DNA from: Candidatus Poribacteria bacterium
Lineage (GTDB): Bacteria > Poribacteria > WGA-4E > WGA-3G
DNA length: 41,513 bases
NCBI GenBank assembly: GCA_028824575.1
Contig: JAPPDN010000059.1
Coordinates: 1 to 41,513 of the forward strand
Direction of reading: 5' to 3'
Numbering within the stretch: the stretch's first letter is position 1; each line of letters begins with the position of its first letter. Under the pieces are notes generated by a model that saw nothing but the letters and a program-made list of their open reading frames with translations, did not search any database and was not told the DNA's origin. Of the stretch, positions 26,993 through 41,513 are shown one piece after another. A program made the translations under genes and the position numbers.

Positions 26993-27021
26993 TTGCAAAA
27001 TAGTAGGGAAAATGGTATAAT
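26993..27021 (+). promoter_or_regulatory. sigma70-like promoter of HEG cassette 1
   Basis: TTGCAA (26993-26998), 17-bp spacer, TATAAT (27016-27021); same layout at 29675-29703. Confidence 0.65.
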
Positions 27022-27180
27022 GGAAGGAGTAAGTGGGAAGGGGGCGTAACCCCTCCCCGCTGCCAGAAACAGCTAACCTAAGTCGCTAAACTTGGATATT
27101 GCTAAAGGCATTTCTATTTTAACAAACCTTCCAAAGAAATGTCAAGCGAGGTCCCCAAACCTACAGGAGCTTGATATATT

Positions 27181-28149
27181 ATGGGATCCATCTACAAAAT
27201 TACGAACACTCTCAGCGGTGAATCTTACATCGGTCAATGCAGGGGCAATGTCAATAAACGATATAATGCTCATATCAGAGGTGATGGAAACAAACCTCTA
27301 AAAGAAGCCATTGATAAATACGGCATTGAACACTTTACCTTTAAAATCCTGCATGATGGTATTTTAGATGAACTCCTTGATGACTACGAGGAAGCAGCAA
27401 TAGCGAAATATAACACCTTTGAAAACGGCTATAACGAGACTCCCAGAAGTAGTGGCAATCTTTCTGGTAAAAATCACCCGCTGTATGGCAAACCTCGCAG
27501 TGAAGAAGAAAAACGAAAAATATCTGAGTCTGCGAAAGCAAGCCCGCTTGTTGCAAAAGTCCAAAAAATGGCAACTGAAGCGGCTGCGAAAAAAACTAAA
27601 GGTGTTCCCCGTAGTGAAGAAATTCGGAGAAAAATAAGTATCTCACATCGTAAATCTGATTATACAGAAATGCCTGATTTCTTTTTATCCCTTCCGGCAG
27701 ATATGCACTCCTCTATAAAAGTGCGTTTACTTCGTGAACAATTCCCAGATGTAAGTAAGAGCACCCTTTACTTCCGAATAAGCAAATGGACTGGTGTAAA
27801 AACTAAAAAACAGCACCCTAATTACCCAGAGGTTTATGAGTTTTTTACTTCCCTTCCGGCAGATATGCCATTACCGAAAAAAAGACATTTGCTCCACAAG
27901 CAATTTCCAAATGTTAGAAGGCATTATATTAATAGATGGCTCAACAAGTGGAGCGGTACAAAAACTTTGAAGCGGCATCCTGATTATTCAGATGCAAACG
28001 ATTTGTTCTTATCACTTCCCGCGGAGATGTCATTATCTGAGAAAAGATGTTTGCTCTACGAACAATTTCCGAACGTTAAAAGAGACACAATTCGGTCTTG
28101 GATCCGCAAATGGCAAACCGAACTTACCCCCAAAGGAGAACAAAAATGA
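27181..28149 (+). CDS. GIY-YIG homing endonuclease (two NUMOD3-like motifs plus three ~50-aa HTH-like repeats)
   Basis: N-terminus MGSIYKITNTLSGESYIGQ...R...E...GYN (GIY-YIG core); PRSEEEKRKIS and PRSEEIRRKIS motifs; three repeats of F(L/T)SLPA(D/E)M...QFP(D/N)V...W..KW. Confidence 0.85.
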   Translation: MGSIYKITNTLSGESYIGQCRGNVNKRYNAHIRGDGNKPLKEAIDKYGIEHFTFKILHDGILDELLDDYEEAAIAKYNTFENGYNETPRSSGNLSGKNHPLYGKPRSEEEKRKISESAKASPLVAKVQKMATEAAAKKTKGVPRSEEIRRKISISHRKSDYTEMPDFFLSLPADMHSSIKVRLLREQFPDVSKSTLYFRISKWTGVKTKKQHPNYPEVYEFFTSLPADMPLPKKRHLLHKQFPNVRRHYINRWLNKWSGTKTLKRHPDYSDANDLFLSLPAEMSLSEKRCLLYEQFPNVKRDTIRSWIRKWQTELTPKGEQK

Positions 28150-28463
28150 CCTCAGTTATCATCAACGTCAAAGGCAAAGGGCGACTGTCCGCTGAAAGTA
28201 TTGTCACCGTCAGAGCATCCGTGATATATTATCTTGATAACGAACCCGACCCCACATTCTTTCAGGTGATGATCACAGCCCCCGCAGCCGACTTAGAGTT
28301 GTTTCTTTTACCCTATATCGATGACGAACAAGCTGATTTAGAAATTGAAATTCTCAATATCGTTCAACCTGTTATCGGGGAACATGACGAGAATCTAAAA
28401 TGGCTTGACTATCTGATACAACACCAGCAAGGAAATCCCACTCTGGACGAAAACGATCGCTGA
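28146..28463 (+). CDS. small acidic protein translationally coupled to HEG 1
   Basis: ATGA overlap with the HEG stop and AAGGAG 8 nt upstream; 105 aa starting MTSVIINVKGKG, Asp/Glu-rich. Confidence 0.55.
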   Translation: MTSVIINVKGKGRLSAESIVTVRASVIYYLDNEPDPTFFQVMITAPAADLELFLLPYIDDEQADLEIEILNIVQPVIGEHDENLKWLDYLIQHQQGNPTLDENDR

Positions 28464-28506
28464 ACTCAAAAATGGAATCGTTAATTGACGAAGGTATGGG
28501 TTTCCA

Positions 28507-28752
28507 TCATTTTTTCCGTTTTTTCTTCATTTCCTGACAATAGGCAGCGAAACATATCTCGTCGAAGGAAAAACGGTAGTTTTCATCGCGATCCTTACAA
28601 ACCCGCTCACTCGGCAATTTCCCCGACTCCTTGCTGCTCACCCAAAGGTTTGCTAACCTGATCCGACCGTTTGGTGTCTCGAGCTGCTCGTAGAAATCGA
28701 CGCAATGATGCCACCCCCGCGGCTGGGACATTGACAACACGATGCGCTTCAA
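28507..28752 (-). CDS. overlapping ORF in the +1 frame at the 3' end of the chaperone candidate (possible frameshift extension)
   Basis: Open frame overlaps 28607-28752 of the upstream gene. It has no ATG with an SD of its own (the track start is TTG). It ends CFAAYCQEMKKKRKK. Confidence 0.3.
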   Translation of the reverse strand: MKRIVLSMSQPRGWHHCVDFYEQLETPNGRIRLANLWVSSKESGKLPSERVCKDRDENYRFSFDEICFAAYCQEMKKKRKK

Positions 28753-29590
28753 AGAGTGTCCTCATAAAACGCTCCGATAACAACCTCACCGGATACGGCG
28801 CATTCTCATCCATCTGAGACTCCACATTCGCTTCATCCTCTACCGGCGCATACGACAGTTGTGGGTCAACGATCATTGCCGGTACCAATACCCGACGGCG
28901 TGAGGTATTTCTTGCCATCTCCGCAGACAACTCTTCACTCGACATCTCCAGATACTTCTTCTGCTTCCCCACCGGATAGAATTCAAACGTCTCTCCACCC
29001 GTGATCGCAAAGGCATCCGCAGGCACCCCGCGACGGACCGTCACTTGATAGATCGCATCGGTTTCGAGTTGATTCACCACAGAAAACGCCTCAGCAAACG
29101 AATCCAGCATCACGCGAGACCTCGTTTCAATCGGGACTCCCTCACCTTTCCCTCGATACGAAAACTGCGGATCTACCAGCATGCCGGAGAGCAGCAGCCG
29201 TGAGAGCTCTATATTCCGTTCCTCTTTCACGACCGGATCCTTTTCCCTATCCGCGTACTCCGTCATTAAGCGCAATTGCTGAATTTCGAGTTCTAACGGA
29301 ATTCCGTCCCGGACTGACACTTGGAAGAATGAATCCTCAAAAAAAAGCTCTACTGTTTTGATGGGCTTCCCCAGCGTCTCTAAAACGTCTCGCGTGATTT
29401 TCGGGGCATCCGAGGCAAGGACCACCCTTGCCGACATATCACGAAAATTCACTTCTACGAGAGCCGTTTCCCGCTCGTCGTGGTCAAAAATATCGGGCGT
29501 AAAGGTGGGCAAATCCGAGGACTCCACCACCTGGGCAGCCCTTCGCGATGAGATTCGAGCATCTAATTGGGATTGAATATCTTTGTTCAT
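28607..29590 (-). CDS. tail assembly chaperone candidate (internally duplicated)
   Basis: Start reassigned to MNKDIQSQ (ATG 29590, AAGGAA RBS). Lies between the major tail protein and the tape measure. Internal repeats FQVSVRDGIP...LLLSGMLVDPQFSY and YQVTVRRGVP...VLVPAMIVDPQLSY. Confidence 0.55.
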   Translation of the reverse strand: MNKDIQSQLDARISSRRAAQVVESSDLPTFTPDIFDHDERETALVEVNFRDMSARVVLASDAPKITRDVLETLGKPIKTVELFFEDSFFQVSVRDGIPLELEIQQLRLMTEYADREKDPVVKEERNIELSRLLLSGMLVDPQFSYRGKGEGVPIETRSRVMLDSFAEAFSVVNQLETDAIYQVTVRRGVPADAFAITGGETFEFYPVGKQKKYLEMSSEELSAEMARNTSRRRVLVPAMIVDPQLSYAPVEDEANVESQMDENAPYPVRLLSERFMRTLFEAHRVVNVPAAGVASLRRFLRAARDTKRSDQVSKPLGEQQGVGEIAE

Positions 29591-29596
29591 AGATTC

Positions 29597-29626
29597 CTTG
29601 TAGCATAGGCTGTTAGCCTGTGCAGC
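29597..29626 (-). promoter_or_regulatory. conserved GCATAGG-stem-GTT-stem-CCTGTGC hairpin, copy A
   Basis: CTTGTAGCATAGGCTGTTAGCCTGTGCAGC directly 5' of the SD of the gene starting at 29590; related copies at 33573 and 36887. Confidence 0.6.
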
Positions 29627-29674
29627 ATAAGGCATCACCTGCTAAAGTGCGCCGCGCCTTCGTGATTTTTTCTC

Positions 29675-29703
29675 TTGCAAAATAGTGGGGAAAATGGTAT
29701 ACT
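29675..29703 (+). promoter_or_regulatory. sigma70-like promoter of HEG cassette 2
   Basis: TTGCAA (29675-29680), 17-bp spacer, TATACT (29698-29703). Confidence 0.6.
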
Positions 29704-29861
29704 ATAGGAAGGTAGTGGAAAGGGGACGTAACCCCTCCCCGCTGCCAGAAACAATCAACTTTTGCGCAAACATCGGAATCTTGCTTTGGCACTCTCATTT
29801 TAACACACTTCCTTTTGAAATGTCAAGCGAGGCCCCCAAACCTACAGGAGCTTGACATAGT

Positions 29862-30812
29862 ATGGGATCCATCTATAAAATTACGAACACTCTCAGCGGT
29901 ATGGCATACATCGGTAAAACTGTCCATGATGCCGAGAAAACTCGAAAACGCAATCATCTGAGTGGCAGGGGCAATAAACCCCTTAAGGACGATATTGACA
30001 AATACGGAGAAGATGTTTTTACGTTTGAGATCCTCCATGATGGTATCATCCCTGAATTCTTGGATACCCTTGAGCGGGAAGAGATTGCGAAACACAATAC
30101 CATGAAACCATATGGCTATAATCAGAACAGAGGCGGTGGCGGTGTCTGTTCGCATTCAGAAGAAACTCGTCAGAAGATGTCTGAGGCACTGAAGGGCAAA
30201 CCCGCATGGAATAAAGGTAAACCCCATTCAGAAGAAACCCGTCGGAAACTTTCTGAAGCAAACATAGGCAAAACGCATTCAGAAGAAACTCGTCAGAAAA
30301 TATCTGAAGTCACCGCAGGTAAAAAAAATCCTAACTATGGCAAATCCCATTCAGAAGAAACTCTCCGGAGAATTTCAGAAAACAACGCAATGAAACGCCC
30401 TGAAGTTCGTCAGAAAATATCTGGTGAAAACAGCCCAACAAAACGCCCTGAAGTTCGTCAGAAAATATCTAAGGCACTGAAGGGCAAACCCGCATGGAAT
30501 AAAGGTAAACCCCATTCAGAGGAAGCCAAACAGAAGATGTCTGAGGCACTCAAAGGCAACCCTGCGTGGAATAAAGGTAAACCTCATTCAGAAGAAACCA
30601 AACAGAAAATATCAAGAGCCAATAAAGGCAGAAAACATTCAGAAGAAACCCGTCGGAAAAACTCTAAAGTCAAACTTGGCATGAGCCCAGAGGCACTCAC
30701 AATCCTTATCGACTGGTTGTTGCGCGCCGGCTGGTCTAAAACCAAGATAACGCGTGAACTTCGGAAAAGCCAAAATACAATCCGAAAATATGCCCCTCAC
30801 GTTTCCAAGTGA
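29862..30812 (+). CDS. GIY-YIG homing endonuclease with about nine NUMOD3 repeats (I-TevI/Seg-like)
   Basis: MGSIYKITNTLSGMAYIGKT...GYNQN catalytic core; repeated HSEETRQK(I/M)S..(L)KGK units; C-terminal HTH-like tail. Confidence 0.9.
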   Translation: MGSIYKITNTLSGMAYIGKTVHDAEKTRKRNHLSGRGNKPLKDDIDKYGEDVFTFEILHDGIIPEFLDTLEREEIAKHNTMKPYGYNQNRGGGGVCSHSEETRQKMSEALKGKPAWNKGKPHSEETRRKLSEANIGKTHSEETRQKISEVTAGKKNPNYGKSHSEETLRRISENNAMKRPEVRQKISGENSPTKRPEVRQKISKALKGKPAWNKGKPHSEEAKQKMSEALKGNPAWNKGKPHSEETKQKISRANKGRKHSEETRRKNSKVKLGMSPEALTILIDWLLRAGWSKTKITRELRKSQNTIRKYAPHVSK

Positions 30813-30827
30813 CTGGACACAAGATAC

Positions 30828-32879
30828 TTAACCCATCCATTGGTCATCAGAAATTATTGTGACCACCAATTCCCCATCTGTTGCACCGTCCAGGGGCACG
30901 GCTTTTAATTCAATATTTACGTCGATGGATCCAGGTCCCGTTACGGGGACACGTACCGGACTTGTGATCTCACAATTCGGAAGATCGTATATGATCGCGA
31001 GTTGCCTCCCGTTTCCGAGCCATTGGTACGTGACAATTCGCACGGAGACGCTCTCGTTGTTCCTAAACTTCTCGTCCCAGCGAACAAATACATCTTCTTC
31101 GCTCGTCCCGCTTTCATACTTTGTCTGAACACTGGAAGTCACATTCCGTCTCGCAGTCGGCTCCGTACTTCGCCTGAAACGTCCCGGTATCTTGCCTTGC
31201 GCAAAATCATAATTATGAGCGATGGAAATCGGCGCACTATCACAAATAACAGCTTCACCGTCAATCTGCAAAAATCTGCCATACCCCGAAAAGAACCGCC
31301 GCCCCACAAACGGAAACTCGTCCGGATGTTGCACCGCCGTTGGGATAAACTGCTCCTCATCGCCACCTTCGATCGTCCGGCGTTTGTCCACACGGTTGGA
31401 GAGTATATCAATCGTCGCGCCGATACTTTCACCGACCTCGATCTCAGCCCCGATCGGGACCCCTCTCGTGACCAACCACGGCTCACCGCCAACTTCAGGC
31501 TCCAATGTCCACCCTGGGAACTCGTCATTCACCGTCTTTAACGTCGTCTCATAACCACCCGGTTCCGCTATCATCTCTACCTTGTGGTTTCCTGTCAGTC
31601 CGGAGGTAGCAACAACAGCACCGTTCGCATCCTTGATGATAACCTTACTGATCTTGTGGAAATGCTTCTCAGAGAGGACATCCGAACCCAGTGCGATTTC
31701 TTCTCTCAACGGAAGTGTGTCGTTGGAAGCGAGTCCCACACGCCGCACCCCTCTGATCAGAAGTGTATGGTCGGTGAGAGCACCTGTATATTTCACGCGA
31801 AGCCGACCCGGACGATCCGGTTCAGGATTCCGCGCTAAATTCGCAGCAATCGGCGGTATCGTGATGGAGAATTTCCCTGCTTTCCAGCCGGTCGTGGTCA
31901 CCTCTGTAATCGTCCCTCCCGCAGGGAGTTCCGTCGTCTGTGGATCGGTTTTCGAGGCATTCGCGAAGGATAACGACAACGTCCCCGGCTGTCCCGCTGC
32001 GTCTGTGTAGGTGATCACTATCGTCCCCGGCGTGTTGTCATCCGTCAACACCGCAGAACCGTTCGGCGTAACCGTCAGCGTCAACGCTCGTGAATATCCA
32101 CTCAAGCCATTCGCAATCTCTTTCGTTACGACGAGGGTTGTGATTTTAAAAGTACCGGCCTTCCAGCCGGTTGTGGTCACCTCTGTAATCGTCCCTCCCG
32201 CAGGGAGTTCCGTCGTCTGTGGATCGGTTTTCGAGGCATTCGCGAAGGATAACGACAACGTCCCCGGCTGTCCCGCTGCGTCTGTGTAGGTGATCACTAT
32301 CGTCCCCGGCGTGTTGTCATCCGTCAACACCGCAGAACCGTTCGGCGTAACCGTCAGCGTCAACGCTTCCGCGTAGCCGCTTAAGTTGTCCACTATCGTC
32401 TTGGCACCTGCGCCAGATAGGTTTTGACCGTCAACGACGTTTACCGTCTTGTCTGCTAAATCAGCTTCATCTACAGCCTTTACCGTAATATCCGCAGCAT
32501 TCGTGAAATAATTATCTGCGATGACATCACTCAGATTCGTCTTCTTCGGGACCAGGGTTTTGTCGGGAATCTTAACACTCACAGGGTTCGGATCCGCCAG
32601 CACGCCTTGAATAATATCCAAAAACCCCGATTCTGAAGGGATCTCTATCTCTACGTTGCCCGAGCCCCAGAGGTAGCCATCCTCTCCGAAGACATCTGCA
32701 CGCCCCGCACGCAGCGCATCGCTCGATTGCTTCTCTGAATCCTCGTCGTGGTTCCACGCCGTGATGACATACCGGCGCTGCACGGCTTGGGTCCGATCGG
32801 TCACAGGGCTACCTGTGCTTTCATTTTCACGCGCAATGATAAATGACGTTCTCTCGGCCTGGCGCCTTTCAACAGCCAT
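30828..32879 (-). CDS. major tail (tube) protein candidate with tandem Ig-like insertions
   Basis: 683-aa ORF with AGGAGG RBS, upstream of the chaperone and tape measure genes. It contains two near-identical 93-aa repeats (LTLTVTPNGSAVLTDDNTPGTIVITYTDAAGQPG...). The function call rests on synteny. Confidence 0.6.
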   Translation of the reverse strand: MAVERRQAERTSFIIARENESTGSPVTDRTQAVQRRYVITAWNHDEDSEKQSSDALRAGRADVFGEDGYLWGSGNVEIEIPSESGFLDIIQGVLADPNPVSVKIPDKTLVPKKTNLSDVIADNYFTNAADITVKAVDEADLADKTVNVVDGQNLSGAGAKTIVDNLSGYAEALTLTVTPNGSAVLTDDNTPGTIVITYTDAAGQPGTLSLSFANASKTDPQTTELPAGGTITEVTTTGWKAGTFKITTLVVTKEIANGLSGYSRALTLTVTPNGSAVLTDDNTPGTIVITYTDAAGQPGTLSLSFANASKTDPQTTELPAGGTITEVTTTGWKAGKFSITIPPIAANLARNPEPDRPGRLRVKYTGALTDHTLLIRGVRRVGLASNDTLPLREEIALGSDVLSEKHFHKISKVIIKDANGAVVATSGLTGNHKVEMIAEPGGYETTLKTVNDEFPGWTLEPEVGGEPWLVTRGVPIGAEIEVGESIGATIDILSNRVDKRRTIEGGDEEQFIPTAVQHPDEFPFVGRRFFSGYGRFLQIDGEAVICDSAPISIAHNYDFAQGKIPGRFRRSTEPTARRNVTSSVQTKYESGTSEEDVFVRWDEKFRNNESVSVRIVTYQWLGNGRQLAIIYDLPNCEITSPVRVPVTGPGSIDVNIELKAVPLDGATDGELVVTIISDDQWMG
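31882..32367. repeat. 279-bp-period tandem duplication inside the major tail gene
   Basis: 207-bp blocks 31882-32088 and 32161-32367 differ at one position seen by eye (GGTCGTGG vs GGTTGTGG). Confidence 0.85.
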
Positions 32880-34887: not shown

Positions 34888-34916
34888 TTGACAAAAGAAG
34901 TCAAGAATGCTACAAT
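34888..34916 (+). promoter_or_regulatory. sigma70-like promoter of HEG cassette 3
   Basis: TTGACA (34888-34893), 17-bp spacer, TACAAT (34911-34916). Confidence 0.65.
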
Positions 34917-35033
34917 ATTGATGTATTGCTGGTAGAGAATGTCACCCTCGTCGCAAGGCGGGGTCTCTACCACCACCGAGTGACATCGGGAGCAATACAC
35001 TTTTAGCAATACAACCCCAAAAAGGAACTCCTT

Positions 35034-35849
35034 ATGAAAAATCCTGGTATCTATATTCTCACTTCGCCGAGTGGCAAGCAGTATGTCGGAAAAGATAACA
35101 ATTTGCCAAGCCGTGTGAGAGATCACTTGCGCGGCAACTCGCCCCAGTGTCCTGCCATCCACGACGCGATTCAGAAATATGGGAGTGATACCTTTTCTGT
35201 TGAAATTATTCAATACCCCGGCATTTCGCATGAGGCATTGAAAGTTGTGGAACGCTGGAAGATTAGACAACTCCAGACAGTGTCTCCCGATGGGTACAAT
35301 CTGACCGAAGGCGGTGATGGGGGTAGCATCTCTGGGGAAACACGCCAGAAAATAAGTAAAAGCAACAAAAAACGCGTTGCGAATGGCACACATAACTTCC
35401 TCGATAGTGATTTCCAACGTCAAGTTCAGAAAAAACGACTTGAGGACGGAACACATCACCTTCTTGATGGTGAAATTCAGCGAAAATCTGCCAAAAAACG
35501 CGTTGCGGATGGCACACATAACTTCCTCGGTGAGAACAACCCAAGCCACAAGCAACTTGCGGATGGCACACATAACTTCCTTGATAGTGAAGTTCAGCGG
35601 CGTGCGAAAATAAAACGGGATGCGGTTAACAAAAAACGACTTAAGGACGGAACGCATCATTTCCTCGGCGAGAACAACCCAAGCCACGCCCGCAAACGCA
35701 AACGGCAAAAAGCCGAATGGTGCTATATCATTGCTCTGTCTCGGTTTTGGTATGAAATTCACGATTATACCCTCAAACGTCGCTCTGAATTCCTCTGTAA
35801 AGACATTCCCAATATGTCGAACGCCGAACAAGAATATTTGTTTGAGTGA
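35034..35849 (+). CDS. GIY-YIG homing endonuclease with five (A/E/K)(D/N)GTH(N/H)(F/L)L repeats
   Basis: MKNPGIYILTSPSGKQYVGK...R...E...GYNLTEGG core; one NUMOD3-like motif SGETRQKISKS; five repeats of the type VANGTHNFLD or EDGTHHLLD. Confidence 0.85.
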   Translation: MKNPGIYILTSPSGKQYVGKDNNLPSRVRDHLRGNSPQCPAIHDAIQKYGSDTFSVEIIQYPGISHEALKVVERWKIRQLQTVSPDGYNLTEGGDGGSISGETRQKISKSNKKRVANGTHNFLDSDFQRQVQKKRLEDGTHHLLDGEIQRKSAKKRVADGTHNFLGENNPSHKQLADGTHNFLDSEVQRRAKIKRDAVNKKRLKDGTHHFLGENNPSHARKRKRQKAEWCYIIALSRFWYEIHDYTLKRRSEFLCKDIPNMSNAEQEYLFE

Positions 35850-35870: not shown

Positions 35871-36386
35871 TCATCGGTTGCCTCTCTCTGCAGCGGCGAT
35901 TTCCTCTTGGAGATACTTATCGCCGAGTTGACCAACTCGTGCTTCAAATCGTTCACCCGCCGCGATGAGTTCGTAAACAGGACGCGCTGATAGATTCGTT
36001 TCGTCATTCCCTTCCTCATGCAACGCAGGGTAATTCGCACCGAACCGCGACTGGAAATATCCGCCACTCACTCCTAGTACCAATTCCTGCGCACTGTATT
36101 CCGCAATAGAGCCTGGACGATTCGGATGTGTCGCCGCATCCCGATAGGTGCCTTCACGCTCCAAAATCCTTTTTCCCGGATGCGTGACGCCTTTCCGTGC
36201 CGCATACAACGGATCCAGTCCCGCCCATCGACCATAACCTTCACTGTCGAAAATATCGTCGATCTCGTCCCAAACAAAGGGCGCAAGGAAATCTGTCCAG
36301 AACCGCGTCGCATCTTGCAACCGCGTTTCGACCCTCTCAACGAAAGCCTCTGTTCTCAGGAGTGCGTCAAAATGAATGTGAATCAT
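35871..36386 (-). CDS. HK97 gp10 / Mu gpG-like virion morphogenesis (head-tail joining) protein
   Basis: Start reassigned to MIHIHFDAL (ATG 36386). The motif pattern FDSEGYGRWAGLDPLYAARKG...GKRILEREGTYRDA...LGVSGGY...YPALHEEG resembles the gp10/gpG family. Confidence 0.6.
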   Translation of the reverse strand: MIHIHFDALLRTEAFVERVETRLQDATRFWTDFLAPFVWDEIDDIFDSEGYGRWAGLDPLYAARKGVTHPGKRILEREGTYRDAATHPNRPGSIAEYSAQELVLGVSGGYFQSRFGANYPALHEEGNDETNLSARPVYELIAAGERFEARVGQLGDKYLQEEIAAAERGNR

Positions 36387-36401
36387 ATTCAGCGTCCTCT
36401 G

Positions 36402-36485
36402 CGGAAACGTCGGGATTTGCGAGGCTTGCGGCTCGCAAATCGTTACCTTCTGTTTGGCTTTCGCGAACAGAAGCCGACGTTTCCG
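36402..36485. repeat. 84-bp three-way-junction palindromic element, copy 2 (intergenic)
   Basis: CGGAAACGTCGG...CCGACGTTTCCG with the same two internal hairpins as copy 1; ends 16 nt from ATG 36386. Confidence 0.9.
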
Positions 36486-36535
36486 ATTTTTCTTTTTGTC
36501 TAAGGTTTCCGACAGCAAGACCTGTTTTAGCGGTT

Positions 36536-36874
36536 CTACAAGACTCCCTGCCCTCTGAGATATAATCTTTGGACAAAGCTGCCTTTCACTTGCAAAACGT
36601 CCACCACACGGAACTCACTCGAATCAGAACGCACCAAGAAATCGCCTTTCGCAATATCCGGGTTCGGTTTCGAGAGCAACGCGATTGCCTCCGTTTGTTG
36701 CACTGCCACATTCGACCGGAGCTGGGTTGCCTCTCGTTGCGGAATCCCAGAAGTAAGCGGTTGGATCATGCAGGTCACATCTTTGGCAACCGTCGTCTCA
36801 TCCGTGGCTTCATACGCCGATTTTCGCACGATTGTCACCATTTCCCTATGGTGTGGCGGAATCCGAAAACGCAT
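36536..36874 (-). CDS. head closure / head-tail adaptor candidate
   Basis: 112-aa ORF with GGAGA RBS. Its size, position and the pattern ...VTIVRKS...W..IQP...GDFLVRSD..EFRVVDV fit SPP1 gp16/HK97 gp9-like adaptors. Confidence 0.5.
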   Translation of the reverse strand: MRFRIPPHHREMVTIVRKSAYEATDETTVAKDVTCMIQPLTSGIPQREATQLRSNVAVQQTEAIALLSKPNPDIAKGDFLVRSDSSEFRVVDVLQVKGSFVQRLYLRGQGVL

Positions 36875-36886
36875 CTTATCTCCGTA

Positions 36887-36914
36887 CCTGTAGCGTAGGC
36901 TGTTAGCCTGCGTA
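36887..36914 (-). promoter_or_regulatory. conserved hairpin, copy B
   Basis: CCTGTAGCGTAGGCTGTTAGCCTGCGTA, 13-40 nt upstream of ATG 36874. Confidence 0.6.
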
Positions 36915-36924
36915 TCTTCTCGCC

Positions 36925-37437
36925 TTAGTCGTTATACGTCGGAACGCGCCGATACGGATACCTCGGTTCCCCGACCTCGCGACGCTCCGTCCCGGCCGCA
37001 CCAAACGGAAGCCGCCGTTTTGTTTGAGAGACCACTGGAGACTCCGCTTGCACTTCTATAACGACATCCGAAACCTTCTCGGTGACCTTCGCCTGATGAA
37101 ACGCACGCTTCTCTTTCCAGTTAATCTCTTGGACCCGCGTGCCAATTTCAATCTGGTCTGACTGAAGGATTTGGGCCGCGACGACGCATAACTCCGAGGC
37201 GCACTGATGCGTCATCGCCAGTCGAGCCACCTCTAACGCCTCGCCTGTCAATGCGTCGGCATCAATGTTCTCCGCCCGTAAGCGTTTGCGAACCTCGCGT
37301 TCAGCGTCCGGCGCGAAGGGCTGCTGCGATAGATACGCATCGGAGATATGATCCGCAGTGACATCCGGGGCAATCAGCCCACGCACCGCATCGTAATGTT
37401 GGGAAGTCAGTATCGTCGCCGGCATAAAGAACTCCAT
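36925..37437 (-). CDS. head-tail connector candidate (gp6-like position)
   Basis: 170-aa ORF following the capsid gene; the likely start is the second ATG (37425), with GGAG 6 nt upstream; function inferred from synteny. Confidence 0.5.
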   Translation of the reverse strand: MEFFMPATILTSQHYDAVRGLIAPDVTADHISDAYLSQQPFAPDAEREVRKRLRAENIDADALTGEALEVARLAMTHQCASELCVVAAQILQSDQIEIGTRVQEINWKEKRAFHQAKVTEKVSDVVIEVQAESPVVSQTKRRLPFGAAGTERREVGEPRYPYRRVPTYND

Positions 37438-37452
37438 AAGTCTCGTCAGGTG

Positions 37453-37500
37453 TCGTAGGGGGTTTTTGCTGGGGTGTTTCTTCGTAGGTCGCCTCGCCCT
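37453..37500. repeat. REP-like element, family 1, inside the prophage
   Basis: TCGTAGGGGGTTTTTGCTGGGGTGTTTCTTCGTAGGTCGCCTCGCCCT, near-identical to 10511-10565. Confidence 0.7.
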
Positions 37501-37514
37501 TTACTGATTGACAG

Positions 37515-38876
37515 CTACTCCAACACCTTCAGTGCCTTGGCACCTGTGTTGCCCAACACGACGATGTAGATCGCTTTCTTCGGCTGATACGAAATCCAGC
37601 CCCAGATCTCGGAGCAGACGATGTATTCGACCTGCTTGAGCATGTCCCGCGTCGTCTCGATGATGTCTGTGTTCATTTGGGAAACGTACTCGACCGCTTT
37701 CCGCTTGTCATACACAACAAACGCGTTATGCTTCGTAACAGAGCCCCCAGACCCAGCCTGAATCCGATCCTGAAGGTAGTCGTGCCACCCGACCCGAACC
37801 CCCTGTGCCAACTGGTTCATCACGGAGAAGCTTCCCCCATACCCGCTCATGACAGCGTTGGGACGCTCGTTCATGTTCACCAGCATCACATTCGTGCCAG
37901 CAACTTTTGCCAACTGGAGATCCGTGATATCCGGGTCATACCCGATCGCTGACGTCAACATATAGGAACGTTTGAACTTCTTCTGGATCGAGAGCCACGC
38001 TTTCGGGGTCATCGTATCCGTCGCATCTTTGTCCAACTCCTGCAGCCGAATCAGCGTGCCACCGAGGTCGTCGCCACCCGCACCATGCAACATCGTCTCA
38101 AGCCCTTCATCCACTTTCGCCATGATCCGCTGGACAGCGATCTCCTCGACGTGCTCCATCGCTTTGTCAATGAACTCGACTTCCCGGAGATGCTCATACG
38201 TGAACGGGATCGCTAACATCCGCTTTTTCGGCTGGATGGGACGCTCAGAGGTGTCGAAGGTCGCCATCGGAGGATCCGCTCCAGGGGTCCGCTGCTCTTC
38301 ACGGAAAGCATCTTCATCATACTCAAGGATCGTGGCACGGTAGTCTTTCTTGCTCGTCTCTGCCATGCGCGTCGTCAATTCCTCAAGCGCGATATCCACT
38401 TCCACGTCTTCGTCCCAGTGTGCCATCGCATCGTGGTAAGGGGTGAGCGTTGAGCCAGGCGGGGTATCATGCACATCTTGGAAAGTGCCAGCGCGTTCCC
38501 AACGCGCACGTCTTTCGGCTTTCCGTGCCGCCGCTTCGATCTGCGGACGATACACCGTACTCCGATACGCGTTCAAACACATCTCTTTGAGTGCTAACTC
38601 TTTCCCAGGATCGCCAATCACGTCCTCACAGCGAGTCGGCCAGACACCCGCAGCAGGATTACAGACGGTGGTCATCTCCAAGTCGTCAAGCACGACCTCA
38701 AACGCTGAAAGCCGTTCGTCATCCGCACCCAACTCGCCATCCTTCTCCGGGTCGTATTGGGAATCAATGTACGCAGAAAACGGCATGCCGGCATCCGCCG
38801 CTTGCTCGACAAGCCCAGCACGCTGCGATGGATTCCCATACCTTTCTACGATTTCTCGTGTCGTCATTAAAGACAT
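37515..38876 (-). CDS. major capsid protein candidate
   Basis: 453-aa ORF with a strong AGGAGG RBS, downstream of the prohead protease and decoration-like genes and preceded by the conserved intergenic module; no diagnostic motif recognised by eye. Confidence 0.6.
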   Translation of the reverse strand: MSLMTTREIVERYGNPSQRAGLVEQAADAGMPFSAYIDSQYDPEKDGELGADDERLSAFEVVLDDLEMTTVCNPAAGVWPTRCEDVIGDPGKELALKEMCLNAYRSTVYRPQIEAAARKAERRARWERAGTFQDVHDTPPGSTLTPYHDAMAHWDEDVEVDIALEELTTRMAETSKKDYRATILEYDEDAFREEQRTPGADPPMATFDTSERPIQPKKRMLAIPFTYEHLREVEFIDKAMEHVEEIAVQRIMAKVDEGLETMLHGAGGDDLGGTLIRLQELDKDATDTMTPKAWLSIQKKFKRSYMLTSAIGYDPDITDLQLAKVAGTNVMLVNMNERPNAVMSGYGGSFSVMNQLAQGVRVGWHDYLQDRIQAGSGGSVTKHNAFVVYDKRKAVEYVSQMNTDIIETTRDMLKQVEYIVCSEIWGWISYQPKKAIYIVVLGNTGAKALKVLE

Positions 38877-39014
38877 TCGTTCTTCCTCCTGTGTAAACTG
38901 TGTAAAGTCTGGTAAAGTGTTCGTAAGTGCCTAAAGTTTCAAGAGATGCTTTGGCCTTCCAAATGTCTCTTGCAACTTCGCAACTATCAAACTTTAGTAC
39001 ACTTCAAAACTTCT
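38877..39014 (-). promoter_or_regulatory. conserved phage intergenic module, copy 2
   Basis: AACTTTAGTACACTTCAAAACTT (38990-39012) is identical to 20411-20433. It also carries the palindrome CAAGAGATGCTTTGGCCTTCCAAATGTCTCTTG (38941-38973) and the block GTGTAAAGTCTGGTAAAGTGTTC (38900-38922). Confidence 0.6.
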
Positions 39015-39554
39015 TTAGCCCGGCATTGTGATCAGGGCGTGTGTGGTGTCAAATTCCATCACCGAGCCTTTGCCCTTTAAAGCCTCCACAATATTTTCAA
39101 CCGTTGTGCCGACACCCTTCGCATAATCACGCGTATGGGTTTGCTCGGCTGCGTTTTTGGCGTTACTGTCTACATCTCCAGCAACAACGTCATCTACATC
39201 CGTCGTCGCAGGTAAGGCAGTTAGGGCACTCACGGCTTTCACGAAGCCCTTCGCACTGCTCGGCCCAAGTCCTGCCACCAACTTATCGCCACGCTTGACG
39301 GTCGCGCTACTCGCAAGCGGGACACGCAACCCACCGAACAGGTACGCACCGGTGATCTGTGTGTCGTCAACAGCGATGATAACGCCATCGAACGCTTCGC
39401 CATCCGCGGGTAATTCGGCTTTGCCATCGGCATTGATCTTATAGACTTTGCCAACTGCCGTGCTACGGTGCTTGGCGGTTATGTCGTATGTGATCGTCTT
39501 CTTATCATGCGGGATACTCGTCGTCACCACATGCGGGTGTTCCTTTAAAGCCAT
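39015..39554 (-). CDS. DUF2190-like head decoration/cement protein candidate
   Basis: 179 aa between the protease and capsid genes; beta-rich segment GKVYKINADGKAELPADGEAFDGVIIAVDD...VKRGDKLVAG resembles DUF2190. Confidence 0.5.
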   Translation of the reverse strand: MALKEHPHVVTTSIPHDKKTITYDITAKHRSTAVGKVYKINADGKAELPADGEAFDGVIIAVDDTQITGAYLFGGLRVPLASSATVKRGDKLVAGLGPSSAKGFVKAVSALTALPATTDVDDVVAGDVDSNAKNAAEQTHTRDYAKGVGTTVENIVEALKGKGSVMEFDTTHALITMPG

Positions 39555-39577
39555 CGTTTTCTATACCTCCTGAATAA

Positions 39578-39744
39578 AGTTATAAGTTGTAGGTACGTTC
39601 GCTACGCTCACTTTTGGTTATAAGTTAAGAGGGCTCACTGTGGAATCCATCTCCCAAAGGGATATTCCATCTGGCGAACGATTGCTACAAACCCACCTCT
39701 TAACTAAAAACCAAGAACCTAAAGCGGAACAAAGTGGAGCGTAC
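39578..39744. repeat. palindromic intergenic repeat, GTTATAAG/GTTAAGAGG family (long copy)
   Basis: AAGTTATAAGTTGTAGGTACGTTCGCTACGCTCACTTTTGG...GTTAAGAGG...CCTCTTAAC...AAAGTGGAGCGTACC; same words as 19587-19701. Confidence 0.7.
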
Positions 39745-39757
39745 CAATAACCACTGA

Positions 39758-41119
39758 CTACCGCCATCTCCGCTTCCGCTGACGCGGGGTCCGTTTCGTT
39801 CGCTCTGGGGGCGGCTCATGGTCGTCGGTCGACCTTCTGCCCGCCGGTAACGCCGCATCGCCTTTTTTCTTGTTGTGTGCGATATGCTCTTCGAGTTTCT
39901 CTAACGGCATGTCGCCGTAATACTCGCGGTGATACGCTTCATCGAATTCGTCACCATACGCACGGTTACCCTGCTTGATCGCCTCTTCAACACGCGCTTC
40001 GCGATACGCCTCGCCGTCCTCGGCAGCTTTCGTCAGATCCGCGATCTCGTCTTTCTGCGTTTCGACTTTCTCGCGGAGACTCGTCACCTCACTGGTCACT
40101 TTTTCTAAGACCGTCTCCGGCTCATCTGTCGAACGCACGTCCTTGAGATCCAAATCCTCCCGCAACGTCGTGACGAGCTGCTGACGCGCCGTGTCCACAT
40201 CCTGTGAGGCGTTCGTGAGATCAGCGATCTCGTCTTTCTGGGTTGAAACGGTCGTGCGAAGGGTCGATACCTCGGTCTCCAGTGCCTTCACAACTTCATC
40301 GGGTTCGTCCGTCGAACGGATACCCGGGACCTTTAGCGCATCGCGCAACTTCTCAATCCACTCATGATCTGTCACTGTAAATTCCTCCATAAATCTTCGC
40401 ATCTGAGCAGCAGCCTCATCAGGCATGTCGGTAGGCATTGGGTTACCTAACCCGTAAGTGGTTGGGTCCCCCCACCCGTACATGAGGAATCGCTGTTTCT
40501 CGATGGAAGTGTGTCGATTAGACCCGAACTCAACGAGTGAAATTTCTTTGAGCCGGGCATCATAGACGGTATACGTCGCCGTCTCCATTTTGCCATCTTT
40601 GTTTTTGTACTGCTTACCCATCTTGTGAGTGCATTGCCCCTCACGTTCGGGTTCCCAATCCCAATAAGAGTACCGACGGATGGGAAGGTTACATAAATTA
40701 CAGATCTCACGGGCATCGTAGAATCCGATAGAGACCTGGTTGATTAACTCGTGTTCAATTGCCCTGATCAATTTCTCAGAAGTTCGGAACTCACGACTGC
40801 CGCCGTCGTATTCCATGTTCTTGAGAATGAAGAAATCGATCAGCAACTCGTTCTTGTCATTCAACATCGCATTTGCCGACCGTCCATACCCGAACGATCG
40901 CCACGCATGATGATCTTTGAGAGCAACCCCAGGCTTCGTTTTCGCATCTTTCTCAAAGTTTTTGAGAGTGGTCTTGGGATCCATAATCGAGTTGTGGCGG
41001 TCCAATTTGTCATTACTTGCCGTGATGCGGACCCAATATTTATCATCGTCCTCTTCCGGCAGATCCGCATGCATTGCGCGGGTCCCAATCGTGACTGGCA
41101 AAAGCCTTATATCTTCCAT
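39758..41119 (-). CDS. HK97-family prohead serine protease fused to a coiled-coil scaffold domain
   Basis: Start reassigned to MEDIRLLPV (ATG 41119, AGGAGG RBS). Motifs SNDKLDRHNSIM, LKDHH, QVSIGFYD and LKEISLVEFGSN match S78/U35 prohead protease patterns. The C-terminal half has two ~66-aa repeats (RSTDEP(D/E).V...QKDEIADLT(N/K)A) and a basic tail. Confidence 0.85.
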   Translation of the reverse strand: MEDIRLLPVTIGTRAMHADLPEEDDDKYWVRITASNDKLDRHNSIMDPKTTLKNFEKDAKTKPGVALKDHHAWRSFGYGRSANAMLNDKNELLIDFFILKNMEYDGGSREFRTSEKLIRAIEHELINQVSIGFYDAREICNLCNLPIRRYSYWDWEPEREGQCTHKMGKQYKNKDGKMETATYTVYDARLKEISLVEFGSNRHTSIEKQRFLMYGWGDPTTYGLGNPMPTDMPDEAAAQMRRFMEEFTVTDHEWIEKLRDALKVPGIRSTDEPDEVVKALETEVSTLRTTVSTQKDEIADLTNASQDVDTARQQLVTTLREDLDLKDVRSTDEPETVLEKVTSEVTSLREKVETQKDEIADLTKAAEDGEAYREARVEEAIKQGNRAYGDEFDEAYHREYYGDMPLEKLEEHIAHNKKKGDAALPAGRRSTDDHEPPPERTKRTPRQRKRRWR

Positions 41120-41172
41120 ACTTATCCTCCTTTCAATCGTTGATCTAAACCTCTCCACGCCCTCTTTTTTTC

Positions 41173-41201
41173 TTGATATTTCCGCTCAAAAATGATATAA
41201 T
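41173..41201 (+). promoter_or_regulatory. sigma70-like promoter of HEG cassette 4
   Basis: TTGATA (41173-41178), 17-bp spacer, TATAAT (41196-41201). Confidence 0.65.
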
Positions 41202-41281
41202 ATTCTTACCTTCATAGGTAGGCAGGTCGCTCCTGCCTTCTAAAACCCCTATGAAGCCACACCTAAACTATGGAGGTTCCA

Positions 41282-41513
41282 ATGAAAAATCCTGGTATCT
41301 ATATCCTCACGTCTCCGAGTGGTAAACAATATGTCGGTAAGGATAGCAATTTGCCAAGACGTGTAAGAGAGCATTTGCGCGGTGATACCCCGGAGTGTCG
41401 CCTGATCCATAAGGCAGTCCAGAAATATGGACGTGATGCTTTTTCTGTTGAAATCATCCAATACCCCGGTATTTCGCATGAGGCATTGAACGCCATGGAG
41501 CGTTGGAAAATTA
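41282..41513 (+). CDS. GIY-YIG homing endonuclease, 5' partial (runs off the window)
   Basis: Absent from the ORF track because no stop is reached. ATG 41282 with GGAGG upstream. Translation MKNPGIYILTSPSGKQYVGKDSNLPRRVREHLRGDTPECRLIHKAVQKYGRDAFSVEIIQYPGISHEALNAMERWKI is a close paralog of 35034-35849. Confidence 0.85.
   Translation, partial: MKNPGIYILTSPSGKQYVGKDSNLPRRVREHLRGDTPECRLIHKAVQKYGRDAFSVEIIQYPGISHEALNAMERWKI

What the first reader, a model, noticed from the sequence alone, without database searches (positions are those of the whole stretch)
26993..41513. Four GIY-YIG homing-endonuclease cassettes, all antisense to the phage late operon, each with its own 17-bp-spaced promoter
Plus-strand ORFs at 27181-28149, 29862-30812, 35034-35849 and 41282 onward all open with GIY-YIG cores. 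Each sits in a gap between two minus-strand virion genes: chaperone and tape measure, major tail and chaperone, gp10-like and the lysis cassette, and upstream of the protease. Each is preceded by a -35/-10 pair with exactly 17 bp between them: TTGCAA/TATAAT, TTGCAA/TATACT, TTGACA/TACAAT and TTGATA/TATAAT. Four free-standing HEGs in about 15 kb, uniformly convergent with late transcription, is dense and oddly regular. Late transcripts must read through them antisense. The promoters look strong enough to fire in a lysogen, which would give antisense RNA against the structural operon.
Basis: partly seen in the sequence, partly recalled or inferred. Interest (0 to 1): 0.7.

Follow-up and report, generated by a model that had tools for sequence, protein, structure and literature searches.

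The report
Antisense homing-endonuclease cassettes with structured RNA leaders
Four mobile selfish nuclease genes sit backwards inside the head-and-tail gene block of a phage of sponge-symbiont bacteria (Poribacteria). Each has its own strong promoter and a conserved folded RNA leader, not in Rfam 15, that probably switches its translation on and off.

Summary
Window 26193-41513 is the head-tail module (minus strand) of a phage found only in Candidatus Poribacteria assemblies. Four plus-strand ORFs are I-TevI-like GIY-YIG homing endonucleases with all catalytic residues intact. They form two families: A (HEG1, HEG2) and B (HEG3, HEG4).

Each ORF lies in a gene junction behind a near-consensus sigma-70 promoter with 17-bp spacing and an extended -10. 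These promoters recur at a fixed distance in homologous cassettes.

Across about 30 related genomes, eight late-gene junctions are occupied or precisely empty. One decayed remnant was found, and all 30 or so A/B cassettes in late modules are antisense.

The rule has limits. Homologues in early-gene arrays are co-oriented with their neighbours, and one different GIY-YIG gene is sense-oriented.

New here: promoter and ORF are separated by conserved 80-160-nt leaders. The B leader is a three-way junction with a pseudoknot. It is supported by covariation and recurs in four sequence classes with unrelated helix sequences. Every class holds a second, ribosome-site-proximal partner for the 5' strand, which suggests a translational switch. 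No Rfam family matches.

Lysogenic firing and antisense silencing of late genes remain untested. Lysogeny itself is not established.

The parts
26993..27021 (+). Promoter of cassette 1 (TTGCAA-17-TATAAT, TG extended -10)
   Evidence: conserved at about -187 from the ATG in family-A cassettes
27022..27180 (+). A-type 5' leader. It has a GC-rich 5' hairpin, a conserved CUUGCUU(U)GGCAUU segment, and a hairpin UGUCAAGC...GCUUGACA that encloses the Shine-Dalgarno sequence.
   Evidence: (D9, D13); the leader is conserved more than third codon positions
27181..28149 (+). HEG1, a 322-aa GIY-YIG endonuclease (family A): NUMOD3 plus three HTH-like C-terminal repeats
28146..28463 (+). p121 (105 aa from the ATG), an unknown small protein co-transcribed downstream of HEG1. 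The same gene follows the endonuclease at this junction in L001 and L145.
   Evidence: no Pfam, PHROG, PADLOC or NCBIfam hit
26261..26947 (+). p228, a lipoprotein-like plus-strand gene (lipobox LGC) at 40% GC. It is additional antisense cargo in the chaperone|tape-measure junction.
   Evidence: no family hit
29675..29703 (+). Promoter of cassette 2 (TTGCAA-17-TATACT, TG)
29704..29861 (+). A-type 5' leader of HEG2, 84-87% identical to that of HEG1
29862..30812 (+). HEG2, a 316-aa GIY-YIG endonuclease (family A) with tandem NUMOD3 repeats. Its stop lies 15 bp from the stop of the tail gene.
   Evidence: (D1, D3)
34888..34916 (+). Promoter of cassette 3 (TTGACA-17-TACAAT, TG). The -35 lies about 10 bp inside the insertion boundary.
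34923..34998 (+). B-type leader motif. P1 is GUAUUGCU/AGCAAUAC. P2 is GGUAGAG/CUCUACC. P3 is a hairpin. P4 is CCGA/UCGG. The pseudoknot is UGUCAC/GUGACA. P1 starts at about the predicted transcript 5' end.
   Evidence: (32 pairs, 100% paired, 8 compensatory pairs, 0/500 shuffles)
35005..35012 (+). Second copy of AGCAAUAC, an alternative partner of the P1 5' strand upstream of the ribosome-binding site
35034..35849 (+). HEG3, a 271-aa GIY-YIG endonuclease (family B) with six DGTHxF repeats. Its stop lies 21 bp from the p215 stop.
   Evidence: (D5)
35871..35912 (-). Recoded replacement 3' end of structural gene p215 (...YLQEEIAAAERGNR*), carried with the HEG3 allele
   Evidence: shared with L160
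34846..34890 (-). Remnant of the original p215 3' end (REEISKLERSLR*). It is now non-coding but keeps the SD and start codon of p130.
41173..41201 (+). Promoter of cassette 4 (TTGATA-17-TATAAT, TG), 52 bp from the protease start codon (41119-41121)
41202..41281 (+). Short leader of HEG4. P1 is CUUCAUAGG/CCUAUGAAG around a hairpin. A second partner, CUAUGGAG, overlaps the SD.
   Evidence: (does not fit the 5-helix descriptor)
41282..41513 (+). HEG4 N-terminus (family B), cut by the window end. The full ORF is 320 aa on the source contig (P0041).

Best explanation
SHOWN.
The region is the head-tail morphogenesis module of a phage of Candidatus Poribacteria. Four autonomous cassettes have been inserted into it. 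Each consists of:
- a near-consensus sigma-70 promoter with an extended -10;
- a conserved structured 5' leader of 80-160 nt;
- an I-TevI-like GIY-YIG homing endonuclease ORF;
- no terminator, with the 3' end butting against the stop codon of the upstream late gene.

The cassettes are AT-rich relative to the phage. They are present or precisely absent at eight late-gene junctions among relatives, and in those junctions they are always antisense.

INFERRED MECHANISM.
1. Host RNA polymerase transcribes each cassette independently of late transcription, on the same strand as the phage's non-structural genes.
2. The endonuclease cuts the cassette-less allele of a co-infecting or resident relative.
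3. Recombinational repair copies the cassette and its adjacent flanks. This is intronless homing, as for the T4 seg genes.

At the p215 junction the occupied allele carries a recoded duplicate of the last 13 codons of p215. This keeps both overlapping genes intact and probably destroys the target site.

The leader is a riboregulator.
- In family B and its variants, the transcript's 5'-terminal strand can pair with a first partner, closing a three-way junction locked by a pseudoknot. It can instead pair with a second partner lying 5-22 nt upstream of the start codon.
- In family A, a Shine-Dalgarno-enclosing hairpin competes with a conserved upstream anti-sequestor.
- Either way the leader toggles ribosome access and so limits or times nuclease synthesis.

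The antisense orientation is best explained by selection. A terminator-less strong promoter pointing with the late genes would drive them prematurely.
For: Endonuclease identity:
- Family hits.
- Y5, Y16, G18, R28, H32 and E71 are invariant, and N87 is kept in over 90%, in 19 family members.
- The profile hits the I-TevI catalytic domain 1MK0/1LN0 at E=1e-9.

Mobility:
- Empty-site alignments at nucleotide level are (p215|p130; tail|chaperone and chaperone|tape measure; portal|protease).
- L022 is a cassette-free reference with 5-67-bp gaps.
- L019 12743-12787 is a decayed remnant. It keeps the promoter, the first 45 nt of the leader and the last ~20 codons.
- A second occupied p215 allele shares the recoded C-terminus and the remnant duplicate.
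- A TnpB element sits in the same tail|chaperone junction in L006.

Composition: cassettes are 40-46% GC against 52-57% for structural genes.

Promoters: conserved at a fixed distance from the ATG, up to 12/12 consensus; otherwise rare in the phage.

Orientation:
- All cassettes are antisense in late modules.
- Homologues are co-oriented with their neighbours in arrays of small genes carrying HTH-type domains.

Leaders:
- They are more conserved than third codon positions: 0.86 against 0.62 for B, 0.75 against 0.50 for A.
- They stay recognisably the same B1 leader (R1 scores 142-153 bits) upstream of ORFs only 43-54% identical.
- B fold: 32 pairs, 100% of cells paired, 8 pairs with compensatory changes (4 of the 6 pseudoknot pairs), 0/500 shuffles, and slid controls 35-49% paired.
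- G-U pairs place the fold on the endonuclease-sense RNA.
- The same five-helix architecture, with unrelated helix sequences, occurs in classes B2 and B3. A kissing-loop minimal form occurs in L034.
- The descriptor hits 19/19 of these leaders, 0/420 shuffles and 1/918 other window tiles.
- Independent minimum-energy folds give z-scores of -4.1 to -5.5.
- An alternative partner for the P1 5' strand exists in all five classes: 7-8 bp, with 0-8 of 500 shuffles matching per class.
- The A-leader anti-sequestor can form 13 bp with one bulge. It is used in the minimum-energy fold of the HEG2 leader, whereas the HEG1 fold uses the SD hairpin.

Precedent: RBS-sequestering hairpins regulate I-TevI, segB and mobE (PMC2988022).
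Against: - No cleavage, transcription or translation data exist.
- The recognition and cleavage sites are not defined.
- The sigma-70 consensus is assumed to apply to Poribacteria.
- P1, P4 and the A-leader SD hairpin never vary within their class, so their pairing rests on complementarity and on cross-class comparison, not on within-class covariation.
- The trigger of the proposed switch is unknown. Few unpaired nucleotides are conserved across classes, which argues against a small-molecule pocket.
- The A-type promoter and leader also drive a non-endonuclease ORF (L136, L145), so the leader is not endonuclease-specific.
- One GIY-YIG cassette (L034) is sense-oriented.
- Cassettes at one junction in different genomes are not independent events. 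The orientation statistic therefore rests on about eight junctions.
Confidence: 0.75

Rival explanations
1. The nucleases are domesticated weapons rather than selfish homing genes. They are expressed constitutively from strong host-type promoters, for instance from a resident phage genome. They cut incoming related phages that lack the matching junction alleles and so give superinfection exclusion or interference competition. Their spread is then a by-product.
For: The promoters are of consensus host type rather than phage-late type. Catalytic residues are under purifying selection in all 19 members. The family is large, with 666 homologues at E<=1e-10, in what appears to be one host phylum (the few named hits and all carrier MAGs are Candidatus Poribacteria). 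Other antisense cargo of moron type shares the same junctions: the p228 lipoprotein, and four small membrane proteins in L022. PADLOC lists such enzymes only as 'HEase'.
Against: The presence/absence pattern, the decayed remnant and the shared flank structure are the classic homing-endonuclease life cycle. The two readings are not exclusive. No defence-system partner genes are present.
Confidence: 0.2
2. The main selected role of the cassette promoters is to make antisense RNA across the structural genes. That RNA silences leaky late expression in a lysogen, and the endonuclease ORFs are passengers.
For: No terminator lies between each endonuclease stop and the converging late gene; the gaps are 15-43 bp. 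About 30 cassettes are antisense at eight junctions.
Against: The ORFs and their catalytic residues are conserved. The leaders are built around the ribosome-binding site, which points to control of translation rather than to a non-coding role. The same cassettes are co-oriented with their neighbours in early regions. Cassette-free relatives such as L022 exist. Lysogeny is unproven for this element.
Confidence: 0.1
3. The leaders are not switches. They are passive 5'-terminal structures that protect the endonuclease mRNA from 5'-end-dependent decay (RNase E, RNase J). The second partner for the 5' strand is incidental.
For: P1 begins within a few nucleotides of the predicted transcription start in classes B1, B2 and B3. 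The fold is compact and pseudoknotted. Few unpaired nucleotides are conserved across classes.
Against: A second 7-8-bp partner placed 5-22 nt before the AUG recurs in five classes whose sequences are unrelated. The A leader encloses the SD itself in a hairpin.
Confidence: 0.25
4. The cassettes are now immobile. The polymorphism reflects ancient insertions followed by deletion and ordinary mosaic recombination between phages, not endonuclease-driven homing.
For: Cassettes at the portal|protease junction have diverged to 43-60% protein identity while staying in place. Phage mosaicism is evident in the uneven identities of neighbouring genes.
Against: The catalytic residues are intact throughout. 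Closely related endonucleases occur at different junctions, for example family B at four junctions. The flanks of the p215 allele are shared in two otherwise different phages.
Confidence: 0.1

Closest known systems
Free-standing GIY-YIG homing endonucleases of T4-like phages (segA-G), with I-TevI as the enzymatic prototype
   Same: The catalytic domain is I-TevI-like. The architecture is modular: an N-terminal nuclease plus repeated DNA-binding modules such as NUMOD3. The genes are intergenic and free-standing, show presence/absence polymorphism among relatives, are densely packed, and carry RNA structure around the ribosome-binding site. T4 devotes 11% of its coding potential to 15 such genes (PMC2988022).
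   Different: In T4 every endonuclease gene except segD is co-oriented with its neighbours. Their own promoters are middle or late, never early or host-type, and segD has no promoter of its own (PMC2988022). Here all late-module cassettes are antisense, with near-consensus sigma-70 promoters. The leader is a multi-helix pseudoknotted element rather than a single hairpin.
T4 segD, a GIY-YIG gene antisense between capsid genes 23 and 24
   Same: It is an antisense GIY-YIG gene inside the head-gene block.
   Different: segD is a single case with no identifiable promoter and flanking terminators, and is presumed to be barely expressed. Here the arrangement is systematic and promoter-driven.
RBS-sequestering hairpins of I-TevI, segB and mobE mRNAs
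   Same: RNA structure occludes the Shine-Dalgarno sequence of a homing-endonuclease mRNA. The A leader has exactly such a hairpin.
   Different: In T4 relief comes from a second, late promoter that starts inside the hairpin. No such internal promoter is seen here. Instead a competing helix exists within the same leader, and family B adds a pseudoknotted three-way junction.
Phage morons (autonomous promoter-gene units between late genes)
   Same: They are independent transcription units of deviant base composition inserted between late genes.
   Different: There is no terminator. The cargo is a mobile nuclease. Expression from a prophage has not been shown.
Riboswitch-type leaders, in which a closing helix P1 competes with an expression platform
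   Same: A structured domain is closed by a P1 whose strand has a mutually exclusive partner next to the ribosome-binding site.
   Different: No Rfam family matches. No conserved ligand-pocket nucleotides are seen across classes. No ligand is known.

Membership tests
GIY-YIG homing endonuclease (I-TevI-like, TIGR01453) | GIY-YIG catalytic domain detected by curated models | tested here: met
   PF01541 is above its cut-off for HEG1, HEG3 and HEG4, and 22.0 against 22.6 for HEG2. TIGR01453 scores 65.7, 112.2 and 69.4 against a cut-off of 56.05.
GIY-YIG homing endonuclease (I-TevI-like, TIGR01453) | Catalytic residues present (GIY Tyr, YIG Tyr/Gly, Arg, His, Glu, Asn) | tested here: met
   Y5, Y16, G18, R28, H32 and E71 are invariant and N87 is kept in over 90% of 19 sequences. 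The profile aligns to I-TevI 1MK0 at E=1.4e-9.
GIY-YIG homing endonuclease (I-TevI-like, TIGR01453) | Separate C-terminal DNA-binding modules | tested here: met
   NUMOD3 is present in HEG1 and repeated in HEG2. HEG3 and HEG4 carry 6 and 9 DGTHxF repeats of unknown fold that hit PHROG 12324 'intron-like DNA endonuclease'.
GIY-YIG homing endonuclease (I-TevI-like, TIGR01453) | Presence/absence polymorphism at the same locus among related genomes | tested here: met
   Eight junctions are occupied or precisely empty. A decayed remnant exists.
GIY-YIG homing endonuclease (I-TevI-like, TIGR01453) | Site-specific cleavage of the cassette-less allele, followed by gene conversion | not testable with these tools
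   This needs enzyme assays and phage crosses.
Group I intron-encoded endonuclease | ORF embedded in a group I intron within a host gene, in sense orientation | tested here: not met
   There is no RF00028 hit at the gathering score or at E<=10. The cassettes lie between genes and are antisense to them.
T4-type free-standing seg/mob arrangement | Co-orientation with flanking genes and middle or late phage promoters | tested here: not met
   The cassettes are antisense in all late-module instances and have sigma-70 consensus promoters. The T4 rule is taken from PMC2988022.
Moron | Own promoter and own terminator, expressed from the prophage | tested here: inconclusive
   The promoter is present. 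No terminator was found; terminator-like hits are at the chance level. Prophage state and expression are unknown.
Known Rfam RNA family (riboswitch, ribozyme or leader) | Match to a curated covariance model | tested here: not met
   The gathering-score scan of the whole window finds only a group II intron fragment at 3436-3512. E-value scans of the B1, B2 and A leaders give only noise.
Riboswitch-like conformational switch | Mutually exclusive helices linking a structured domain to the ribosome-binding site | tested here: met
   A second partner for the P1 5' strand is present in five classes. The A leader has a sequestor/anti-sequestor pair.
Riboswitch-like conformational switch | Conserved ligand-binding core and a known ligand | tested here: not met
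   Junction nucleotides are not conserved between classes B1-B4.

The most novel reading that the evidence does not exclude
The leaders are a new family of cis-acting riboregulators dedicated to mobile nuclease cassettes. The family B type is a 5'-terminal three-way junction with a pseudoknot whose closing helix competes with a ribosome-site-proximal decoy. A phage or host signal sets the switch. Candidates are the endonuclease itself, a late-phase factor, or the antisense late transcript. The nuclease would then be made only when a cassette-less rival genome is present or at a safe time. In this reading the arrays of antisense, host-promoter-driven endonucleases act as an inter-phage warfare and gene-drive system in the dense, phage-rich sponge symbiont community.
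Probability: 0.3. Interest if true: 0.75.

Novelty: new variant of a known kind. Interest (0 to 1): 0.6.

Why it matters
Homing endonucleases in phages are textbook selfish genes. The model is built almost wholly on T4, where they ride the host gene's transcription and are held back by simple hairpins.

This Poribacteria phage lineage shows a different solution. Its cassettes are fully autonomous, with host-type promoters, oriented against the late genes, and fronted by an elaborate conserved RNA.

If the leader is a switch, it would be a new, compact, well-sampled regulatory RNA with natural covariation across four classes. It would also give a handle on how selfish nucleases are timed in uncultivated symbiont phages.

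The empty and occupied alleles found here define the substrates needed to test homing directly.

Tried and rejected
- Isolated phages: a tblastn of the major head protein against 50,697 phage records found nothing. The lineage is known only from metagenomes and MAGs.
- Solved structures: a single-sequence PDB search with HEG2 and HEG3 found nothing. Only the family profile reached I-TevI.
- JGI metagenome contigs: a scan for the B-leader pattern found nothing. Extra leaders came instead from ENA assemblies by exact-protein look-ups.
- Divergent promoter: the minus-strand TTGACA-18-TAAAAT matches inside the A leaders (27145..27116 and 29826..29797) looked like a divergent promoter for the downstream late gene. 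The TTGACA is one arm of the palindromic SD hairpin and appears on both strands. I do not claim a promoter.
- Upstream ORF: the ATG at the start of the B leader (MYCW*) is not conserved; relatives have GTG, CTG or ACG. It is rejected. The long N-terminal extensions in database gene calls are translated leader.
- Group I intron remnant: no Rfam support.
- Guide-RNA analogy to HEARO/IscB: there is no variable 5' segment ahead of P1. The variable pseudoknot strands co-vary with each other, not with target sites.
- Outer helix in the A leader (AGGAAGG/CCUUCCU): it is complementary in 12 sequences but may lie partly upstream of the transcription start, so it is not claimed.
- Descriptor hit at window 10261-10433: this is a set of nested hairpins with no ORF downstream. 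It counts as the single false positive.
- PADLOC: it lists the enzymes only as 'HEase'.

Full report
**1. What is in the window**

Minus-strand genes from 41121 down to 20436 form a head-tail module. In order they are:
- a protease-like gene, with only a weak Peptidase_S78 hit;
- p179;
- the major head protein (PHROG 3922);
- p170;
- p112, with a weak head-closure hit;
- p215;
- a small lysis-like set, p130, p78 and lys221 (lysozyme PHROG 1259);
- p175;
- a 683-aa tail protein with a duplicated Ig-like segment (D2);
- a chaperone whose 3' end is overlapped by a conserved second-frame ORF, 28507-28752;
- a 1918-aa tape measure (Pfam TMP_3).

Relatives of the head protein occur only in Candidatus Poribacteria MAGs and single-cell genomes and in IMG/VR contigs (the Poribacteria records are sponge symbionts); one Arenicellales contig matches at 53%. 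No isolated phage is similar.

**2.

The four plus-strand ORFs are GIY-YIG enzymes of the I-TevI type. An alignment of 19 family members keeps every catalytic residue. Its profile finds the I-TevI catalytic domain at E=1e-9.

They fall into two families. Family A is HEG1 and HEG2 (MGSIYKITN...). Family B is HEG3 and HEG4 (MKNPGIYILTS...). HEG4 is cut by the window end but is a complete 320-aa ORF on the 129-kb source contig.

They are not chance matches.
- Comparable sites are absent from the other 20 kb of phage genes.
- The same promoter sits at a fixed distance from the ATG in homologous cassettes of other genomes, several with a perfect 12/12 consensus.

Plus-strand cargo makes up 30% of 26193-41513. 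It is 40-46% GC, against 52-57% for the structural genes.

**3. The cassettes are mobile insertions**

I mapped the window's proteins onto 32 related loci and onto further loci found through exact-protein look-ups. Eight late-gene junctions are occupied in some genomes and empty in others.

| Junction | Occupied (all antisense) | Empty or other |
|---|---|---|
| portal\|protease | HEG4 and 12 others | L006, L019, L022 |
| p170\|p112 | L005, L016 | — |
| p112\|p215 | L156 | L019 holds a remnant |
| p215\|next gene | HEG3, L160 | L001, L002, L015, L022 |
| p175\|tail | L002, L013, L016 | — |
| tail\|chaperone | HEG2, L001 | six genomes; L006 holds a TnpB element |
| chaperone\|tape measure | HEG1, L001, L015, L019, L145 | L002, L006 |
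| between tail-fibre genes | L135 | — |

L022 has no cassette at all, with 5-67-bp gaps between its structural genes.

The L019 remnant keeps the promoter, the first 45 nt of the leader and the last ~20 codons of the ORF. This is the expected decay stage of a homing-endonuclease cycle.

The best-resolved site is p215|p130. In empty alleles the p215 stop overlaps the p130 start (ATGA). The occupied allele has a recoded copy of the last 13 codons fused to p215. The original copy is left next to the cassette promoter as the ribosome-binding region of p130. The same structure is present in L160, whose downstream gene is different. This allele therefore spread together with its flanks. The promoter lies inside the inserted segment at every site.

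**4. Orientation**

About 30 A/B cassettes at the eight late-module junctions are all antisense. Counting junctions as the independent events, 8 of 8 gives a probability of about 0.004 under equal odds. This is my arithmetic, and it is only an inference.

The rule is not absolute.
- Homologues in L153-155 and L157/158 sit in arrays of small plus-strand genes with HTH-type domains; L154 also carries a VRR_NUC gene. They are co-oriented with those neighbours.
- In L150-152 the RHH-type genes (plus an acetyltransferase in L150) beyond the terminase share the cassette strand.
- A different GIY-YIG gene in L034 is sense-oriented between late genes.

So the cassettes follow the strand of the non-structural genes.

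In T4, every endonuclease gene except segD is co-oriented with its neighbours. Their own promoters are middle or late, and segD has none (PMC2988022). This lineage therefore departs from the model system.

**5.

Between promoter and ORF lie 80-160 nt that are as conserved as first and second codon positions and far more conserved than third positions. They remain clearly the same leader (R1 scores 142-153 bits) upstream of ORFs that share only 43-54% protein identity.

The B leader has the following elements:
- P1, which begins at about the predicted transcript 5' end;
- P2;
- the P3 hairpin;
- the P4 hairpin;
- a pseudoknot formed between the P4 loop and an internal loop of P2.

On ten distinct sequences all 320 cells form standard pairs. 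Eight pairs show compensatory changes, including four of the six pseudoknot pairs. No shuffle out of 500 reaches this, and slid controls pair only 35-49%. Twelve G-U cells in P3 place the fold on the endonuclease-sense RNA.

The same architecture recurs with entirely different helix sequences.
- Class B2: L147 and L159, whose pseudoknot strands differ from each other yet remain complementary.
- Class B3: L153.
- Class B4: L034, a reduced kissing-loop form.

These are documented. A descriptor requiring all five helices matches 19/19 B1-B3 leaders, 0/420 shuffles and one other place in the window. Free-energy folding independently returns the three-way junction, with z-scores of -4.1 to -5.5.

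In all five classes, including the shorter HEG4 leader, the P1 5' strand has a second 7-8-bp partner ending 5-22 nt before the AUG. Only 0-8 of 500 shuffles per class match this.

The A leader has three elements:
- a GC-rich 5' hairpin with compensatory variants;
- an invariant hairpin that encloses the Shine-Dalgarno sequence;
- a conserved upstream segment able to form 13 bp with the 5' strand of that hairpin.

The two minimum-energy folds choose different states.

No Rfam family matches either leader.

The A promoter and leader also drive a 112-aa non-endonuclease ORF, which heads a three-gene antisense operon (ORF, endonuclease, p121 homologue) in L001 and L145. The module is therefore not endonuclease-exclusive.

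**6. Interpretation**

Shown:
- the identity of the enzymes;
- the autonomy of the cassettes;
- the insertion polymorphism;
- the orientation bias;
- the conservation and fold of the leaders.

Inferred:
- homing by double-strand break repair;
- transcription by host polymerase;
- leader-controlled translation;
- selection against sense-oriented insertion of a terminator-less strong promoter.

Not supported by any data here:
- activity in a lysogen;
- antisense silencing of the late genes.

The lifestyle is open. The window's left end carries a BCCT transporter and an aldehyde-dehydrogenase fragment. Close relatives lie on 140-350-kb contigs, some with names that suggest circularity. Only more distant head-protein relatives sit in complete 4.8- and 5.5-Mb chromosomes.

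**7. Verdict**

The endonucleases themselves are new members of a well-known kind. Two things are new variants of known themes: the systematic antisense, host-promoter-driven arrangement, and the pseudoknotted switch-like leaders. The leaders are the most interesting lead.

Noticed in passing
window 15958-16051 and 36398-36491: A 94-nt repeat, 93-94% identical between the two copies, folds into a Y-shaped double hairpin (about -49 kcal/mol). One copy lies inside the 1726-aa tail-fibre-like ORF without breaking the frame. The other lies between p112 and the likely true start of p215. It looks like a miniature mobile or REP-like element.
   Followed up: partly
window 3436-3512 (+): Rfam group II intron domain V/VI (RF00029, 44.8 bits) lies just inside the 5' end of the ORF (3383-3838) that holds an aldehyde-dehydrogenase C-terminal fragment.
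   Followed up: no
window 28507-28752 (-) overlapping 28607-29638 (-): The chaperone gene has a second-frame ORF across its 3' end. DNA conservation continues past the stop codon in L002 and L006. This looks like a G/GT-type programmed frameshift upstream of the tape measure.
   Followed up: partly
window 28146-28463 (+); L001 10541-10912; L145 7001-7333: The p121 family is a ~105-aa protein with 26 unnamed homologues and no domain hit. In the three phage loci examined (window, L001, L145) it lies immediately downstream of the endonuclease in the chaperone|tape-measure junction. One homologue lies near a TnpB gene outside a phage module.
   Followed up: partly
window 26261-26947 (+); L022 15814-17586 (-): The chaperone|tape-measure junction also collects other antisense cargo. 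The window holds a 228-aa lipoprotein-like gene that may have a TGnTATACT extended -10. L022 holds four small membrane or lipoprotein genes. These are moron-like.
   Followed up: partly
L006 16713-17933 (-): A TnpB (OrfB_IS605 plus Cas12f-like TNB) gene occupies the same tail|chaperone junction that holds HEG2 in the window. It is also antisense.
   Followed up: partly
window 20309-20433 and 38933-39012: Repeated motif AACTTTAG(C)TACACTTCAAAACTT, with a 53-nt inverted-repeat relationship between the two sites. One lies in the gap upstream of the major head gene, the other in the gap after the tape measure. It may be a late regulatory or processing element (D15 and I1).
   Followed up: no
window 6032-10135 (-): A 1367-aa secreted protein has YWTD/LDL-receptor-type propeller repeats, a dockerin-like segment and a T9SS/FlgD-Ig C-terminal sorting domain. 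It lies next to the phage tail-fibre genes. It is unclear whether it belongs to the phage or the host.
   Followed up: no
window 2306-2950 (+): A 214-aa ORF has an HNH-like CxxC...HxxH...CxxCH pattern but no Pfam hit.
   Followed up: no
window 35366-35687; P0041: Family-B endonucleases carry tandem DGTHxF(L) repeats of 18-28 aa: six in HEG3 and nine in HEG4. These are probably modular DNA-binding units of unknown fold, and their number varies between paralogues (D5, 107).
   Followed up: no
L147-L152 (for example L151 7094-7573): A GNAT acetyltransferase gene lies in or beside the packaging-gene block of several relatives: between the ~480-aa and ~470-aa genes upstream of the protease in L147, L148, L151 and L152, and on the opposite strand beyond them in L150.
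   Followed up: no
window 10280-10365 (+): Three nested GC-rich inverted repeats (CTGCTAGG/CCTAGCAG, GTCCTGTG/CACAGGAC, GGGGGCA/TGCCCCC) lie in the gap upstream of the 1367-aa gene. This was the only off-target hit of the leader descriptor.
   Followed up: partly
window 11693-11717, 12797-12821, 13241-13265; also 10511-10560 and 37453-37502: Families of GC-rich hairpins, TCGTAGGGGCGGGG...CCCCGCCC, lie after minus-strand genes. They could be terminator or stabiliser elements (D12 and D19).
   Followed up: no
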